Source: Magallana gigas (Eukaryota). From it: a stretch of 64,000 nt of DNA. The position numbers were made by a program. Shown here piece after piece: positions 21,001 through 57,000 of this stretch; the first letter of the stretch is position 1, and each line of letters starts with the position of its first letter. Location of the stretch: the NCBI RefSeq assembly GCF_963853765.1, contig NC_088855.1, positions 23,994,001-24,058,000 of the forward strand, given 5' to 3'.

Positions 21001-24000
21001 GCAATGATCGCTGCAATATATAGTAACGCACAACTCCCCAAAAGTCAGCGCGTTTTATAGTCCCATATGAATTCAAATATCTTCTAAGTTTTCATTCAGA
21101 GTGAGTTTAAGTTAATTACGTAACGTACGATCAATACTACATGTACAAGATAGCGTAGAGGGATAGCCAATTCTCCCAACTGAGTTACTTCGAGCTAAGT
21201 ATTTGGAAGTTGGAAATACTTGAGCCGTTTCTTTCAATCACAAAATGATTCATACCACTGCGCCTATTTTAGAAAGTAACAAAAAATGATTTCTTACAAA
21301 TTAACACGAAACCTTTGTTAATATTCACAAAAGTTCCGCTTGAATTCGCGAACTTTTTTCAGCTACGAAAATGAGCTCAAACGCGAATTCAAGCAATGCG
21401 TCTCTAAGAAAATTAAATAATAATATTGATAAAAGAGAAAGCATTATTCATCGTTGTTAATATCATTGATGTCAGGTTGAATTATAAATTGTCACTAAAT
21501 ACAATGTTTCACGTTTGAAGGCAGTTTTCAAAAGTTCAAGACATGCAAATTGCTTATTACATGGTAAATTTGCTTCTTTTTTTTCAAAAATAGATTGTAA
21601 TTTATATGTAGTTATTTGGCCAAAGATATAAAAGATAAAAAACTCAGAAGATAAATAAATATGCTTTATTTATACTCAACATTTTTCATTTAAGGTCAGA
21701 CGACACGTTCCTTGAAAAATGATAGTTATTTTTCAAATTTTCAACGGCCTCATAATATACCAAATAAAAATATTATTATTTATTATCATTTTTAAAATGA
21801 TTAAAACTTTAGAAATATTTAAGAAATGAACTCAATATCTACCCAAGTTATACGAGTATAACCTGGGTTGGGGCAATTTACGCTTTATAATCCGCGAAGC
21901 GGATTATAAAAAAGCGTAAATTGCTCCAACCCAGGTTATACTCGTATAACTTGGGTAGATATTGAGTTCATTCCTTATAATTTAATTTTCTGTAATTTGC
22001 TGTACAAATTGAGTCAGTTTACTTTTAAAAATGATATTAATCTGTTCAAAATTCAAACGTAACGTCAAGCGGATTAGTACGTTTTTGACGTTAGTGCATT
22101 GTGACGTGTCTTGTGACGTGCAAACCAGGTTATACAAATTTAACTTAATTTTTCTATCCAATCAAATGCCGCGTTACAACCAGAATTAAATTATATATGA
22201 ATATGCTAATAATTTCTATATCAACAATTTTCAATAAGAATATATAGGAAACTGCATATTCTAGTATCTTGCACAAATGCCTGATAAGGTACCATAATTT
22301 TTTGCAAGAAAGCTTGTCAAAGTAGTAGTAAATCAATTACAAACGAGGAACGTGTCGTCTGACCTTAATAATGTATTTAAAACTTGTTCAATGAATTTCA
22401 TAATACAGAAAATAACGAAACCTTTTGCCAATAAAAAAAAAGGGGGTAATTTTCACAGTAAGCATCAATTCCATGAAATTAACCGAGCACCGACTCACCC
22501 TCGATATAAACCGCCACTTAGTTTTCACCAAGGGAATTTACGTACACTTGTTAATGATAACTACATATATTAATGTACATATGAATGGCAGCCAGCCAAC
22601 CTGCAGCACTTCACACATTTCAGCAGACATACTCTTGATTATTGACAAACTACCTGCAGTGAATATACAAATCTACAGAAAATGTGCACAGATAAAGGTA
22701 ATTGAGTAGATTATGTGGAGAATATATTGCTTGACAAATCAGAATGCCACAGAACTGTCACCACTAGCAGGTGCTATGCTGCAGCCTTAGGGATGCCTTT
22801 CTTTGTAAACCATTCATCGCTTTTATCTGCTGCTATTGCCTGAAAATCAACATCAAATACTAGATAATATGTTTAAAATTTAGGTATATAACGCTTTAGT
22901 AATAAGTATGATGGTAGTAACATGTAAATATTTCTTGTAATTATATACATGGAAATACACATAATTATGCTTTCTGCAGATTTTAGCTCAATCAGAAAAA
23001 TATGGTCATTATTCAAGATATGTTGACACTGTCAAATGTGACTTGTTTGCATGAAAAACAAAAAAAAATTCAATTGAATTTTCATAAAACATTTTTTTCT
23101 TTTACATGAAACTCATATGAAGAGAACTTTTGTAGTACATACATCATATAAATACAGTCACTTCACATGATGAATTCCCATATTAATCATGTGATTGCTG
23201 ATTTAATATGTTTATGTAATGTACTTTGTAATATAATGTTTTCATATATGGTACCAAACTTGGTACTTAAAATAAAAATAAATGCAAAAAGCATAAGGGA
23301 AATAAATGTATTCAAATTTTATTATCTAACATCAAAAAAGTAACATAATCCTAGATATAAATATAACTACTTGGTATTTAAAAAAAAAAAAACGCAATAG
23401 ATCCATATTACCACAAGAACATTTTCTGCCACAATCAACTTGAGCAATTTTGGAGTGACATATCCCTTGTCATTTAAACATTTTTTTTCAGCAAAACATT
23501 ACAACAGAGAAAATAATTTCATGATATGTGGAATAAAATCATAATCATTATTATAGAAATGCAAAATCAATGTTAATTAATTTAATGCAGTGATATGAAA
23601 TTTTGGGGCCCAAGTATTAATCCGACTGTTACAACAACAAAATTCCTCTTCTACCCCCCCCCCCCCCCCCCAAATCTTGCCAAAAATAAGTTGTTTTCAA
23701 CAAAACAAACCTGATCTAGAAGTAGGTCAGCCTTAGGATCCACTTGTGAGAGTTCCTGGAATGCTTCATCTCCAACAAAACATATCTCATGGCCGTCCTA
23801 TTCATTGATTGAAAAAAAGGATTTCATATATCAAATCAAAGAACGATTTATAAGTAAATGACGCCAAAAAATATTCTTCACTGTTAGCCACTCAAAACAT
23901 AAAGCCTTTCACTAACTTTGATGATGTCTGGATATATGGATATTGACAAAATATTCTAGAGAGGAATGCAAACAACAATTGATAGATTGGAAAAGTTTGT

Positions 24001-54000: not shown

Positions 54001-57000
54001 TGCCTCATGGACGCGGCCATCTTGGTAATAATTATGAAATCGCGATCCCGATTAACAGATACCCCAAAATTACACGAGTGCTCAAGATCTGTATATTATC
54101 TATAGAGGTAAGATACTTGAAAAAAAAATAAAAATGTCATTATATTTAATTTGTTGTGATAGCAAATAATATGGTTGGCAAATGATTTGCTCAAGCTCAT
54201 TGAGCTCCTTCGTATAAAAATGCATTTGCTTCAACTTTTTTTTATACATGTAGTAGGCCTAGGGAAACTTCCAAATGTTTCAAAGCAATTTTCACTATAA
54301 GATCATAAGCATCTTTACAGCTACTATTTCCAGAGGACTTATCGATAGAAATTCTTGTGGATCGGGGAAAAAAGTTGTCATATGACGGTGTTACGAGTCA
54401 CGTGGTGATGAACCCAAGAGTGGTGTTCGAGTCAGTTATTGCCATGCTCCTTATCAAAATTAAAAAAAAAATCATACGAAGATTTTTGTTGAAGGTTTAA
54501 ATATCATTCTTGCAAAGTCCCTGGATTATCATCGACACGGCGCACATGCAGTTTTCCAATCCATACATAACATTTAAAAATAGTCGATTTAAATTTCGAT
54601 CAGAATTTTATTTGCGCTTTTTGAATGAATGACCAAAATTTGAATGTTAGAGGTCAAGTTATAAGAGAGATACAGAGGTAAGAATTTATTGTAATGTAAA
54701 CAAAGCTCGAGTCTTATATTTGTTTACAAATAATGTAAAGTATAGAATTACCGTAATGATTTCTTTGACAAAATGACTCGTGGCAAATAAGGTAAACTGA
54801 TTAAATGTGTTCATAAATACATGTATAGTTATCAACAGAAGAAAGCACCATTTGATTGAAACTTGGACCAATTAAACACATAAGGGTTAACAATAACAAG
54901 GCTCGTGCTTTGTTTACAAACCAAATAATTAAGACTCTTTATCTTGCATATAACTCAAAATTTGACTCTCATATGTTATCAAAGCATTATATTTACATCT
55001 ACCAAGTATGATTCAATCTATTTCTTACGGAAACTTATAGTTAGTTCATTGCTCTATAGAAACAGCATGCAGATTGAAATCTACACGCCCCATTTATCGA
55101 TTGGTCGAAATCTACAGCGGCTGAAACTGACAAGAAAATGACAGGACAGATATCGACACGCCCTGTTTATCGATTGGTCCAAATAAACCTATAGCGACCT
55201 AGGAAAAATCACGGACTGCACGAAATAATCATGACGATGTCAGACTCAAAGTCTCACAGGAGACGATTTTGCTGTTTCTTTTAGCTAACTTACTTACGTA
55301 CATTAACAGTAATTTAATGAATTTTACTTACTTTTCCTAATTAATTTATCAATTAGCTTAAAGAAAGATGTTAATATAAACAATAAAATGCTTTCTTTGG
55401 TGATCATTGCAGAAAAAATTTACATAACCCGCTAACGCAGGTTATGTATTTTTTCTGCAATGTCACTACCTTCATATCATTAATGAATCACCAGAGAAAG
55501 CATTTTATTGTTTAAATAAATACCTATATTAGCCATTTTCATAATTAAATTTGGATTGGAAAAATGAAATTTAAGATTCTGAGCTCAAATCTTGTACAAG
55601 TCCTTTAAATACAAAGTGCGTCTTTGGTTAACGAATATAAGCAGTGAATTTAACGTTATGCAGTTATATCATAAAAATCTATCTGTGAGCCAATGCTCAC
55701 TTGTAATACCCCCGCTCTGATGTGAATATACAAAATAAGCAAAGTCGACATTTAAAGGAAGTTAAAGTCCAATTTGCACAAAAATACATCCCAACGTATG
55801 GAATGCTCAAAGAGTGTGTTAAAATTTTAAGCATCTGCGATGAACAGTTACTGAGAAAAATGCTACAGATTTTTTTTTGTTACGGACGGACAGACAGACA
55901 CTCAGGGGCAAAACAGTATACCCCCTTATTCTTCTTCTTCTTCTTCAGAGCGGGTGTATAAAAATCACGCATTCATCTTATATTAAATAGTTTAGTATTA
56001 TGTGAATACACGCATATACCAGTTGATAGCTCATTACATTTTAGTCAGAAGTTTTTTTTAGTATACCCTTACACTATAGTTTTTTTTTCATGATATCAAC
56101 ATTTGGATCTGTTTTCAAAGTTCACAAAATACAACTTAAATTTGATATTAAGATAAAGAGCCCATAAGTGTCGCGTGATTGCGCTGTCTGTCTAAATAGA
56201 AACGTCTACCTATTCAAATCAAAGTACTGAAGAACTGAAAGCTCAGCTCTTTGTACTAATAAATAAGCTGAGTATTTTTTTGTTGAAAATGAGAAGGATA
56301 AAAATCCATTAAGCCAATGTCATGAAGGGGTCATTCTTCGCTATCAAACTGTTTTTATAGGTTAAAAAAGATTTGTTTTCCAGGATTTATAGACTTTTGA
56401 ATCAGAAATTTGCAGGAACAATTTGTTGGGACCGATGTGACACCAGACTCAAGAGAATACAAAAATAAAATAAACTGAAAACAGTATATTTAAAAACAAA
56501 ATACACATATTTGACAATACATGAACATGTACAGACAAATATTCATAAAAATAAAACAAATAATTGCCACGTTATTACAAATAAAATGAGTTATATATAA
56601 TCAGCGAATAAACATATTATCCACTTATTTGATTGTAGAAGTACTGTTCTTCATCCATTACTACTTCTAATAACTTCTCAATATCCGGCAGTGCATTATT
56701 CCTCTGCCTAATGTACACGCAAGTCCGGTACATCGTACCAAATTCCATGGTTTTCATTTGTAACAGACTTTCTCGAAATAGCAGACGATGGTGCGTCTCT
56801 TTTTTGTACTCCATTGGGAAGATTTTTTGTCTTTTTGCCCTTTTGCTTTTTCGAGGTTCCATTCGACTTTGAATTTGATGCAATGATACCTGTTAGCTTT
56901 GAGTTCTGTCGTTTTAATAAGTTCCTTGGTGAAGGCGGACTAGAGCTATAATGATTGACCTGTGGGGACTCCCCCCAGCTACAGCAAGACCTCTTTTTCT

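What the first reader, a model, noticed from the sequence alone, without database searches (positions are those of the whole stretch)
22774..54020. GLOD4-RILPL1-TMED2-MRM3 block looks like a pre-vertebrate-duplication ancestral neighbourhood
Seen: four adjacent genes, GLOD4(-), RILPL1(-), TMED2(+) and MRM3(-), with Srrm234 two genes away. Established (recalled human map): GLOD4 and MRM3 are head-to-head neighbours on 17p13.3, where RILP also lies. RILPL1 and TMED2 are divergent near-neighbours on 12q24.31, and SRRM4 is also on 12q24. Inference: the mollusc keeps a bilaterian microsynteny block that vertebrates split by reciprocal loss after genome duplication. The human GLOD4-MRM3 bidirectional promoter would then be derived.
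[Added by the scan's program, not by the reader: the finding's places include an assembly gap (unread letters, written N; its length is only estimated) at 48306 to 48481. Whether the letters on both sides are continuous or in frame is not known: test that first.]
Basis: partly seen in the sequence, partly recalled or inferred. Interest (0 to 1): 0.65.

Follow-up and report, generated by a model that had tools for sequence, protein, structure and literature searches.

The report
Oyster GLOD4–RILP-like–TMED2–MRM3 gene neighbourhood
Four neighbouring oyster genes match two separate pairs of human gene neighbours on chromosomes 17 and 12, which most likely reflects old linkage split after the vertebrate genome duplications, an ordinary and known kind of pattern.

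Summary
The window is oyster (Crassostrea) DNA. It carries GLOD4(-) 22774-30753, a RILP-like gene(-) 34544-45030, TMED2(+) 49048-50413 and an MRM3-like gene(-) 51986-54020. No other recognisable gene lies between them. An Srrm234-like 3' end sits one gene (FABP-like) beyond GLOD4. The assembly gap (48306-48481) is in repeat-rich intergenic DNA between the RILP-like gene and TMED2. No reading frame crosses it, and one repeat copy is split in register across it, which favours continuity. Papers confirm the human map: GLOD4 and RNMTL1/MRM3 share a 612-kb interval on 17p13.3, RILP lies nearby, and RILPL1 and TMED2 are neighbours on 12q24.31 with SRRM4 in the same 6.6-Mb interval. P2RX, CAMKK and PITPNM family members occur in both regions. 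GLOD4 and the RILP-like gene lie on the same contig in 11 of 14 lophotrochozoan species, and on one 1.29-Mb scaffold in a scallop. Ancestral close linkage followed by differential loss is therefore the best reading. Gene order in amphioxus, sea urchin or gar could not be tested. One inversion relates the oyster order to the human-like order, and its branch is unknown, so the claim that the human bidirectional promoter is derived is unsupported.

The parts
6794..8941 (+). 3' exons of an Srrm234-like gene: RS-rich stretch 6794-7168, and the SRRM_C/eMIC-type region at 7445-7738 and 8636-8941
   Evidence: ORFs. Pfam SRRM_C 1.6e-7 (32.3 bits, cut-off 27) at 7445-7738 and 0.0082 at 8636-8941. The 5' part of the gene was not mapped.
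15753..20267 (+). FABP/CRABP-family gene (three ORF stretches: 15753-15920, 19452-19694, 20046-20267), lying between Srrm234 and GLOD4
   Evidence: ORFs. The middle exon matches squid ReP1-NCXSQ at 5.7e-8 and CRABP2 at about 1e-6 among solved structures. Pfam found nothing at single-exon level.
22774..30753 (-). GLOD4, 10 coding exons: 30753-30664, 29337-29293, 29185-29066, 28039-27896, 26623-26573, 25991-25881, 24649-24560, 24419-24282, 23797-23708, 22842-22777, then stop TAG 22776-22774. Exon ends are approximate, taken from tblastn.
   Evidence: tblastn of oyster GLOD4 proteins P0017 and P0016. ATG, stop and splice dinucleotides. Pfam GLOD4_C. Best solved-structure match human GLOD4, 1.4e-19. 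375 relatives found, and the named ones are mostly called GLOD4.
34544..45030 (-). RILP-like gene, the pro-orthologue of RILP/RILPL1/RILPL2. Exons: 45030-44731 (RH1), 44327-44169, 43909-43784, 41964-41731, 41372-41076 (RH2), 38854-38756, 34591-34547, then stop TGA 34546-34544. Residues 368-380 of the reference protein were not placed.
   Evidence: tblastn of P0133 and P0137. Pfam RH1 1.9e-29 and RILP 5.8e-10. Solved-structure matches RILPL2 1.1e-12 and RILP 0.043 for the RH2 exon. Named relatives are called 'RILP-like protein 1' in oysters, scallops and others.
45031..49047 (.). Divergent intergenic region between the RILP-like gene and TMED2. It holds a G-run repeat family (about 47.2-48.7 kb) and a perfect 45-nt inverted repeat at 45931-46044.
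48306..48481 (.). Assembly gap of 176 N, true length unknown. It is intergenic, and one repeat copy is split in register across it.
   Evidence: Not filled.
49048..50413 (+). TMED2 (p24 beta), four coding exons at about 49048-49230, 49520-49714, 49968-50066 and 50288-50410, then stop TAG 50411-50413
   Evidence: ORFs. Pfam EMP24_GP25L covers profile positions 4-44, 43-106, 113-146 and 147-182. Solved-structure matches TMED2 7e-27, TMED5 8e-6, TMED1 8e-4. ATG, stop and splice sites.
51986..54020 (-). MRM3-like SpoU-family gene. Exons: 54020-53754, 53385-53140, 52801-51989 (this last stretch contains an in-frame, stop-free intron), then stop TAA 51988-51986.
   Evidence: tblastn of P0001, the C. 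angulata protein named MRM3-like. Solved-structure match MRM3 at 2e-9, and at 4.3e-22 for P0001. Pfam SpoU_methylase matches profile positions 2-80 of 142 only.
56708..59316 (-). Voltage-gated K+ channel gene, Shaw-like by best match. It is the next gene beyond MRM3 and is not part of the block.
   Evidence: Pfam Ion_trans 1e-30 and BTB_2 2.9e-24. Solved-structure matches Aplysia Shaw 3.2e-23 and KCNC1 3.5e-22.

Best explanation
This is an ordinary stretch of an oyster chromosome. The single-copy genes GLOD4, RILP-like, TMED2 and MRM3-like sit side by side, with Srrm234 one gene further on.

Their human counterparts lie in two regions, 17p13.3 and 12q24.2-q24.31, that share several paralogous gene families. 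The most likely history has three steps:
1. The genes were already closely linked before the vertebrate genome duplications.
2. The duplications copied the whole neighbourhood.
3. Differential loss followed. GLOD4 and MRM3 survived only on the 17p copy. TMED2 survived only on the 12q copy. The RILP family survived on both, and an SRRM gene survived on 12q.

Shown here: gene identities, adjacency and orientation in the oyster; RILPL1-TMED2 adjacency in human and horse; and same-contig linkage of GLOD4 and the RILP-like gene across molluscs, a nemertean and an annelid.

Inferred: that the linkage was tight in the bilaterian or chordate ancestor, and that the losses were reciprocal after duplication.

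The exact ancestral order and orientation are open. The oyster order and a human-like order differ by a single inversion of the RILP-like-TMED2-MRM3 segment, and its branch is unknown.
For: - Gene calls and adjacency.
- RILP-like(-) and TMED2(+) are head-to-head, 4,017 bp apart ATG to ATG. RILPL1 and TMED2 are consecutive protein-coding entries in a human 12q24.31 gene list (passage of PMC11867633). They also flank one lncRNA in horse (table passage of PMC7022612).
- GLOD4 and RNMTL1 are among the 10 genes of one 612-kb human interval (PMC5685312).
- RILP lies 12 listed OMIM genes after RNMTL1 (PMC5791184).
- P2RX, CAMKK, PITPNM and RILP family members occur in both human regions.
- Invertebrates have a sole RILP homologue (PMC10391735). 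Srrm234 is a single ancestral gene, and amphioxus Srrm234 is called a pro-orthologue.
These are C. virginica, Saccostrea echinata, Tegillarca granosa, Pinctada imbricata, Mizuhopecten yessoensis (a 1,292,295-bp scaffold), Argopecten irradians, Mactra antiquata, Liolophura sinensis, Littorina saxatilis, Tubulanus polymorphus and Owenia fusiformis.
- Robert et al. 2022 report that lophotrochozoans retain 93% of the microsyntenic blocks that arose in the bilaterian ancestor (passage).
Against: - Contig lengths differ between the two hits in 3 of the 14 species: Sinanodonta woodiana, Haliotis cracherodii and H. rubra.
- The Tegillarca locus tags are KUTeg_009659 and KUTeg_010194. If the tags follow position, the genes are 535 genes apart, not adjacent.
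- Ten of the 11 same-contig cases are whole chromosomes. They show only chromosome-scale linkage, which ancestral linkage groups already predict.
- No deuterostome invertebrate or non-bilaterian was examined.
- In human, RILP is not next to GLOD4 or MRM3, and SRRM4 is up to 6.6 Mb from RILPL1.
- That the P2RX, CAMKK and PITPNM pairs date to the vertebrate duplications is general knowledge, not tested here.
- The FABP-like and Kv genes in the window have no counterpart in either human region that I know of.
Confidence: 0.55

Rival explanations
1. Secondary juxtaposition. Only the two pairs (at most) are old, or only chromosome-scale linkage is old. Rearrangements within the oyster or pteriomorph bivalve lineage brought GLOD4 and MRM3 next to the RILP-like-TMED2 pair, so the interleaving says nothing about the pre-duplication state.
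For: - Different contigs in Sinanodonta and in two Haliotis species (3 of 14), and Tegillarca locus tags 535 apart.
- GLOD4 and MRM3 are not head-to-head in the oyster.
- In human, RILP lies 12 listed genes from RNMTL1.
- My rough estimate is that a fully scrambled genome would still give about 0.3 such four-gene runs genome-wide (no call).
Against: - All four genes plus Srrm234 map to just two human regions that share paralogous families.
- The scallop keeps GLOD4 and the RILP-like gene on one 1.29-Mb scaffold.
- Lophotrochozoans are reported to keep most bilaterian blocks.
Confidence: 0.33
2. Selective constraint rather than passive retention. The RILP-like-TMED2 head-to-head pair (and, in vertebrates, GLOD4-MRM3) is held together by a shared divergent promoter region or by shared regulatory elements, as proposed for conserved ancestral microsyntenic pairs. 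This is compatible with the best explanation and adds a mechanism to it.
For: - The head-to-head arrangement in the oyster and adjacency in human and horse.
- Irimia et al. 2012 report nearly 600 such pairs and tested for enrichment of the 5'-5' orientation (abstract and passages).
Against: - The oyster intergenic distance is about 4 kb and mostly repeats. A long non-coding transcript unit (TMED2-DT) and a microRNA sit between the human genes. Neither looks like a tight bidirectional promoter.
- No expression data were available.
- The pair is not named in the main texts of the two surveys I could read.
Confidence: 0.2
3. Assembly artefact. The scaffold join at the gap is wrong, so the RILP-like gene and TMED2 (and with them the two halves of the block) are not truly adjacent.
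For: The gap sits exactly between the two halves, in a multi-copy repeat family that could mislead scaffolding.
Against: - The repeat copy interrupted left of the gap resumes about 8 nt further along the unit right of the gap, in the same orientation.
- A false join would have to recreate by accident an adjacency that also exists in human and horse.
Confidence: 0.04

Closest known systems
Conserved ancestral microsyntenic pairs (Irimia et al. 2012, Genome Res; PMC3514665, abstract and passages read)
   Same: Unrelated genes that stay adjacent across phyla, and head-to-head orientation is one of the features that survey tested for. RILP-like-TMED2 fits this: adjacent and divergent in the oyster, and adjacent in human and horse.
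   Different: Conservation was shown here for only two deep lineages. The pair is not named in that paper's main text, and its supplementary lists could not be read. The oyster intergenic region is repeat-rich and about 4 kb, not a compact shared promoter.
Bilaterian microsyntenic blocks of three or more genes (Robert et al. 2022, BMC Genomics; PMC8851819, passages read)
   Same: A dense run of at least three unrelated genes in a lophotrochozoan, the clade reported to retain 93% of the blocks that arose in the bilaterian ancestor.
   Different: Presence of this block in other phyla was not tested. In human it exists only as two separate pairs on different chromosomes.
Dismantling of ancient syntenic associations after the two vertebrate genome duplications (Touceda-Suarez et al. 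2020, MBE; PMC7530604, abstract and outline read)
   Same: One ancestral neighbourhood is duplicated and then resolved by differential gene loss, so each copy keeps a subset of the genes.
   Different: That work concerns regulatory blocks around developmental genes, and conserved non-coding elements served as proof. Here all the genes are housekeeping-type, and no non-coding evidence exists.
Human 12q24 / 17p13 paralogy (P2RX4/7 with P2RX1/5, CAMKK2 with CAMKK1, PITPNM2 with PITPNM3, RILPL1/2 with RILP)
   Same: The oyster block mixes orthologues from exactly these two regions.
   Different: The family co-occurrence was read from two clinical gene lists. That these pairs are ohnologues is recalled knowledge, and one search found no paper stating it.

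Membership tests
GLOD4 (glyoxalase domain-containing protein 4) | GLOD4-specific C-terminal domain (Pfam PF21701) together with glyoxalase/VOC repeats, and best match to GLOD4 rather than to glyoxalase I | tested here: met
   GLOD4_C at 1.1e-16 and 9.7e-8 in two exons. Human GLOD4 at 1.4e-19 against plant glyoxalase I at 3.6e-16 for one exon. Named relatives are mostly called GLOD4.
RILP family (RILP / RILPL1 / RILPL2) | N-terminal RH1 domain and C-terminal RH2 (Pfam RILP) domain joined by coiled coil | tested here: met
   RH1 1.9e-29 and RILP 5.8e-10 in separate exons. Both domains are present in the full-length oyster protein P0133.
RILPL1 specifically (1:1 orthologue) | Groups with vertebrate RILPL1 to the exclusion of RILP and RILPL2 | not tested
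   No tree was built, because no vertebrate sequences were among the 120 listed hits. Passages of PMC10391735 say that almost all invertebrates have a sole RILP homologue and that the fly gene is the single orthologue of all three. The gene is therefore treated as a pro-orthologue.
TMED2 (p24 beta subfamily) | GOLD/emp24 domain, a transmembrane segment and a cytoplasmic tail, and clearly closer to TMED2 than to other p24 subfamilies | tested here: met
   Profile positions 4-182 of 182 covered by four exons. TMED2 7e-27, TMED5 8e-6, TMED1 8e-4, TMED9 0.24.
MRM3 (mitochondrial rRNA 2'-O-methyltransferase 3) | Best match to MRM3 among SpoU-family proteins, with an MRM3-type N-terminal substrate-binding domain | tested here: inconclusive
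   MRM3 is the best solved-structure match (4.3e-22, against 7e-11 for the next), and NCBI names the oyster protein MRM3-like. But the MRM3-like_sub_bind match is below its cut-off (0.0023 and 0.0073), and MRM1 did not appear among the solved-structure matches for comparison.
MRM3 (mitochondrial rRNA 2'-O-methyltransferase 3) | Complete SpoU catalytic domain, including the C-terminal half | tested here: not met
   Pfam SpoU_methylase matches profile positions 2-80 of 142 only. The alignment to MRM3 stops at residue 251 of 393. Where mammalian MRM3 reads 'viggethgvs' the window reads 'liisddtlkvs', in a stretch that scores as not significant. The divergent motifs are conserved among bivalve relatives. 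That this half binds the methyl donor is recalled, not tested.
Srrm234 (eMIC-containing SRRM pro-orthologue) | RS-rich protein ending in the SRRM_C / eMIC region | tested here: met
   SRRM_C 1.6e-7, 32.3 bits against a cut-off of 27, split over two exons. The N-terminal part of the gene was not examined.
Conserved ancestral microsyntenic pair | The same two unrelated genes adjacent in several deeply diverged animal lineages | tested here: inconclusive
   RILP-like-TMED2 is adjacent in the oyster and in human and horse, which is two deep lineages only. For GLOD4-MRM3, the two genes are three positions apart in the oyster and within one 10-gene interval in human.
Pre-duplication block resolved by reciprocal loss | The two vertebrate regions are duplicates of each other (they share several paralogous families) | tested here: met
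   P2RX, CAMKK, PITPNM and RILP family members appear in both gene lists. Dating of these pairs to the vertebrate duplications was not tested.
Pre-duplication block resolved by reciprocal loss | The same tight gene order in unduplicated outgroups from more than one phylum, including a deuterostome | not testable with these tools
   No animal genome collection was open. I have only same-contig evidence for one gene pair, in 11 of 14 lophotrochozoans.

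The most novel reading that the evidence does not exclude
The run Srrm234 ... GLOD4-RILP-TMED2-MRM3 is a true bilaterian-ancestral microsyntenic block. Both human pairs (GLOD4/MRM3 on 17p13.3 and RILPL1/TMED2 on 12q24.31) are then the complementary remains of one duplicated four-gene cluster. 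That would give a compact, datable marker for the 12q24/17p13 paralogon, and a natural experiment on how a divergent gene pair arises or survives through one inversion and reciprocal loss.
Probability: 0.35. Interest if true: 0.45.

Novelty: new member of a known kind. Interest (0 to 1): 0.3.

Why it matters
If the four-gene run is ancestral, it is a tidy worked example of a well-known process: a small pre-duplication neighbourhood resolved into complementary halves on two human chromosomes. It would tie 17p13.3 to 12q24.31 at single-gene resolution. It would also let the age of two human divergent gene pairs be tested with outgroups. It does not change the current understanding of synteny evolution, because hundreds of conserved pairs and blocks are already catalogued. 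This one may already sit in supplementary lists that I could not read.

Tried and rejected
- **Accession-number adjacency test.** I planned to compare database accessions of the orthologues in scallop, eastern oyster, Saccostrea and others, with the oyster genes as a positive control. I used the contig-length column instead.
- **Literature on this synteny.**
  - No paper holds three or more of GLOD4, MRM3, RILPL1, TMED2, microsynteny and synteny.
  - Of 41 papers holding two of a similar term set, none of the 25 listed contains 'microsynteny'.
  - None of the 4 papers found mentions GLOD4, so none bears on a GLOD4-MRM3 bidirectional or head-to-head arrangement.
- **Paralogon literature.** Neither search stated the 12q24/17p13 paralogy. 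In one search, 448 papers were found and none of the 15 listed contains 'paralogon'. In one search, 9 papers were found and none is on this region.
- **Microsynteny surveys.** The main texts of PMC3514665 and PMC8851819 name none of the four genes. Their supplements, which hold the pair and block lists, are closed.
- **MRM3-like exon 53119-53529 against solved structures:** 0 matches.
- **FABP-like exons against Pfam:** 0 matches at single-exon level. One solved-structure search settled the family.
- **Inverted repeats flanking the RILP-like-TMED2-MRM3 segment, as a trace of a recent inversion:** only weak, AT-rich pairs at 70-71% (I4 and I5). Rejected as chance.
- **Hidden genes:** 0 of 10 further ORFs had Pfam matches, and there were 0 tRNAs.
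- **Spliced models.** These were searched exon by exon. The joined step was left out. Full-length oyster proteins from the database served as stand-ins.
- **Human contigs.** I took no contig for human.
- **Locus tags as a position proxy.** The Tegillarca tags are reported as uncertain counter-evidence only.

Full report
**What the window is**

The window is 64 kb at 34% G+C with a single run of 176 N at 48306-48481. The best named relative of its methyltransferase ORF is 'rRNA methyltransferase 3, mitochondrial-like [Crassostrea angulata]'. Unnamed database proteins match the window exons at 98-100%.

**The gap, tested first**

- The gap lies in the 4,017 bp between the ATG of the RILP-like gene (45030, minus strand) and the ATG of TMED2 (49048, plus strand). 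No reading frame of either gene crosses it, so the question of frame does not arise.
- The surrounding 1.5 kb is built from a repeat family with long G runs.
- A copy of the unit seen at 47940-48100 begins again at 48106 and follows the unit up to 48166. It then runs into sequence that occurs only once in the window.
- The first bases after the gap (48482 onward) resume the same unit about 8 nt further on, in the same orientation.
- The simplest reading is one repeat copy interrupted by an insertion that the assembler could not finish. This favours continuity. Because the repeat is multi-copy it is not proof.

**Gene content**

Spliced models were searched exon by exon. The joined step was left out. 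Where a full-length sequence was useful I used oyster proteins returned by the database search as stand-ins.

| Gene | Strand | Span | Main evidence |
|---|---|---|---|
| GLOD4 | - | 22774-30753, 10 exons | Pfam GLOD4_C in two exons; best solved-structure match human GLOD4, 1.4e-19; exon map |
| RILP-like | - | 34544-45030, at least 7 exons | RH1 1.9e-29 and RILP/RH2 5.8e-10; RH2 exon nearer RILPL2 (1.1e-12) than RILP (0.043); 3' exons at 38.8 and 34.5 kb |
| TMED2 | + | 49048-50413, 4 exons | exons tile profile positions 4-182 of the 182-position emp24/GOLD model; TMED2 7e-27 against TMED5 8e-6 |
| MRM3-like | - | 51986-54020 | weakest call, but MRM3 is the best solved-structure match for the window ORF (2e-9) and for the oyster protein P0001 (4.3e-22, next 7e-11) |

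- Start codons, stop codons and splice dinucleotides are consistent for all four genes.
- None of 10 other large ORFs between the named genes matched Pfam. There are no tRNAs.

Flanking genes:
- On the left is an FABP/CRABP-family gene. Beyond it are the RS-rich and SRRM_C exons of an Srrm234-like gene.
- On the right is a Shaw-like voltage-gated K+ channel.

**Orientation**

The order is GLOD4(-), RILP-like(-), TMED2(+), MRM3-like(-).

| Neighbours | Arrangement | Distance |
|---|---|---|
| RILP-like and TMED2 | head-to-head | 4,017 bp |
| TMED2 and MRM3-like | tail-to-tail | 1,572 bp |
| GLOD4 and RILP-like | tandem | 3,790 bp |

GLOD4 and MRM3 are on the same strand.

**The human map**

I could check this only through gene lists in papers (passages read).
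- A 612-kb 17p13.3 deletion lists 10 genes, among them GLOD4 and RNMTL1, the old name of MRM3 (PMC5685312).
- An ordered 17p13.3-p12 list of OMIM genes reads ...GEMIN4, RNMTL1, NXN, TIMM22, ABR ... SCARF1, RILP, PRPF8 ... P2RX5 ... CAMKK1, P2RX1, ATP2A3 ... PITPNM3 (PMC5791184).
- A 6.6-Mb 12q24.23-q24.31 deletion lists SRRM4 ... P2RX7, P2RX4, CAMKK2 ... PITPNM2 ... RILPL2, SNRNP35, RILPL1, MIR3908, TMED2-DT, TMED2, DDX55 (PMC11867633).
- Horse shows the same neighbours around RILPL1 and TMED2 (PMC7022612).

Two details remain recalled only: the head-to-head orientation of human GLOD4/MRM3, and the divergent orientation of RILPL1/TMED2. None of the 4 papers found mentions GLOD4. The two lists also show members of the P2RX, CAMKK, PITPNM and RILP families in both regions. 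That is what paralogous regions from the vertebrate duplications should look like.

**Orthology nuance**

Passages of PMC10391735 state that almost all invertebrates have a sole RILP homologue, and that the fly gene is the single orthologue of RILP, RILPL1 and RILPL2. Srrm234 is likewise described as the single ancestral gene, and amphioxus Srrm234 is called a pro-orthologue.

**Other species**

The homology searches do report, for each hit, the length of the contig that carries it. For 14 species both a GLOD4 hit and a RILP-like hit were listed.

- Different contig length in 3 species: Sinanodonta woodiana, Haliotis cracherodii and H. rubra.

I take an identical length to mean the same contig. 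Ten of the 11 are whole chromosomes, so they show only chromosome-scale linkage. The scallop scaffold is 1.29 Mb, which is close linkage. Against tight conservation, the Tegillarca locus tags differ by 535, although such tags are not reliably positional (the Pinctada tags are not).

**Interpretation**

The best reading is that these genes were closely linked before the vertebrate duplications and that the duplicated neighbourhood was resolved by differential loss. I put 0.55 on that, and about 0.35 on the stronger claim that the four were an uninterrupted run in the bilaterian ancestor.

The main rival (0.33) is that only chromosome-scale linkage, and perhaps the RILP-like-TMED2 pair, is old, and that the interleaving arose within bivalves. 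A misjoin at the gap is unlikely (0.04).

**The 'derived promoter' inference**

Inverting the segment RILP-like-TMED2-MRM3 turns G(-)R(-)T(+)M(-) into G(-)M(+)T(-)R(+). In that second order GLOD4/MRM3 and TMED2/RILP are both head-to-head, as recalled for human. RILP also lies on the MRM3 side of GLOD4, which fits the ordered human list. One inversion therefore separates the two states. It may have happened on the oyster branch or on the chordate stem before the duplications. Two taxa cannot polarise it. The statement that the human bidirectional arrangement is derived is possible but unsupported.

**Novelty**

- Irimia et al. 2012 report nearly 600 conserved ancestral microsyntenic pairs.
- Robert et al. 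2022 infer 256 new blocks at the bilaterian ancestor, of which lophotrochozoans retain 93%.
- Touceda-Suarez et al. 2020 describe how duplicated ancient associations were dismantled (abstract).

This case is a further member of that known kind. None of the four genes is named in the two main texts I searched, and no paper combines the gene names with synteny terms. The supplementary lists that would settle whether it is already catalogued are closed.

Noticed in passing
window 57065-57178 (-): Rfam 'Potassium channel RNA editing signal' (RF00485) matches at 54.1 bits (gathering score 51, E 4.6e-8) over the whole model. The match lies inside the coding exon of the Shaw-like Kv channel gene. It may be an A-to-I editing hairpin in an oyster channel.
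   Followed up: no
window 51989-52500 (-), C-terminal exon of the MRM3-like gene: Only the first half of the SpoU profile is recognisable (positions 2-80 of 142). The alignment to MRM3 stops at residue 251 of 393. The C-terminal motifs read LIISDD and KLNP.VPG, and they are invariant in 7 aligned bivalve relatives down to 52% identity. The protein is diverged but under constraint. It may not be a canonical methyltransferase.
   Followed up: partly
window about 52510-52630 (-): An intron of the MRM3-like gene is in frame and free of stops, so the region 51989-52831 reads as one 281-aa ORF.
   Followed up: partly
window 45931-45975 and 46000-46044: A perfect 45-nt inverted repeat with a 24-nt spacer lies about 0.9 kb upstream of the RILP-like start codon. 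Its nature is unknown; it could be a hairpin or a small foldback element.
   Followed up: no
window 47200-48700; also about 13700-14200, 35000-35130, 42900-43000, 23600-23700: A dispersed repeat family with long G or C runs, which translate as poly-Gly or poly-Pro in the ORF lists. It surrounds the assembly gap and recurs in introns and intergenic DNA.
   Followed up: partly
window 61265-61981 (-): A 239-aa Gly/Tyr/Gln/Ser-rich ORF that looks as if it has a hydrophobic N-terminus and has no Pfam match. It may be a low-complexity secreted protein.
   Followed up: no
window 38756-41076 (-): Residues 368-380 and 414-416 of the full-length oyster RILP-like protein P0133 found no place in the window by tblastn. 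This suggests one or two very short exons in the long 3' introns.
   Followed up: no
window 15753-20267 (+): An FABP/CRABP-family gene sits between Srrm234 and GLOD4. Its best solved-structure match is the squid protein ReP1-NCXSQ. As far as I recall, it has no counterpart in the two human regions.
   Followed up: partly
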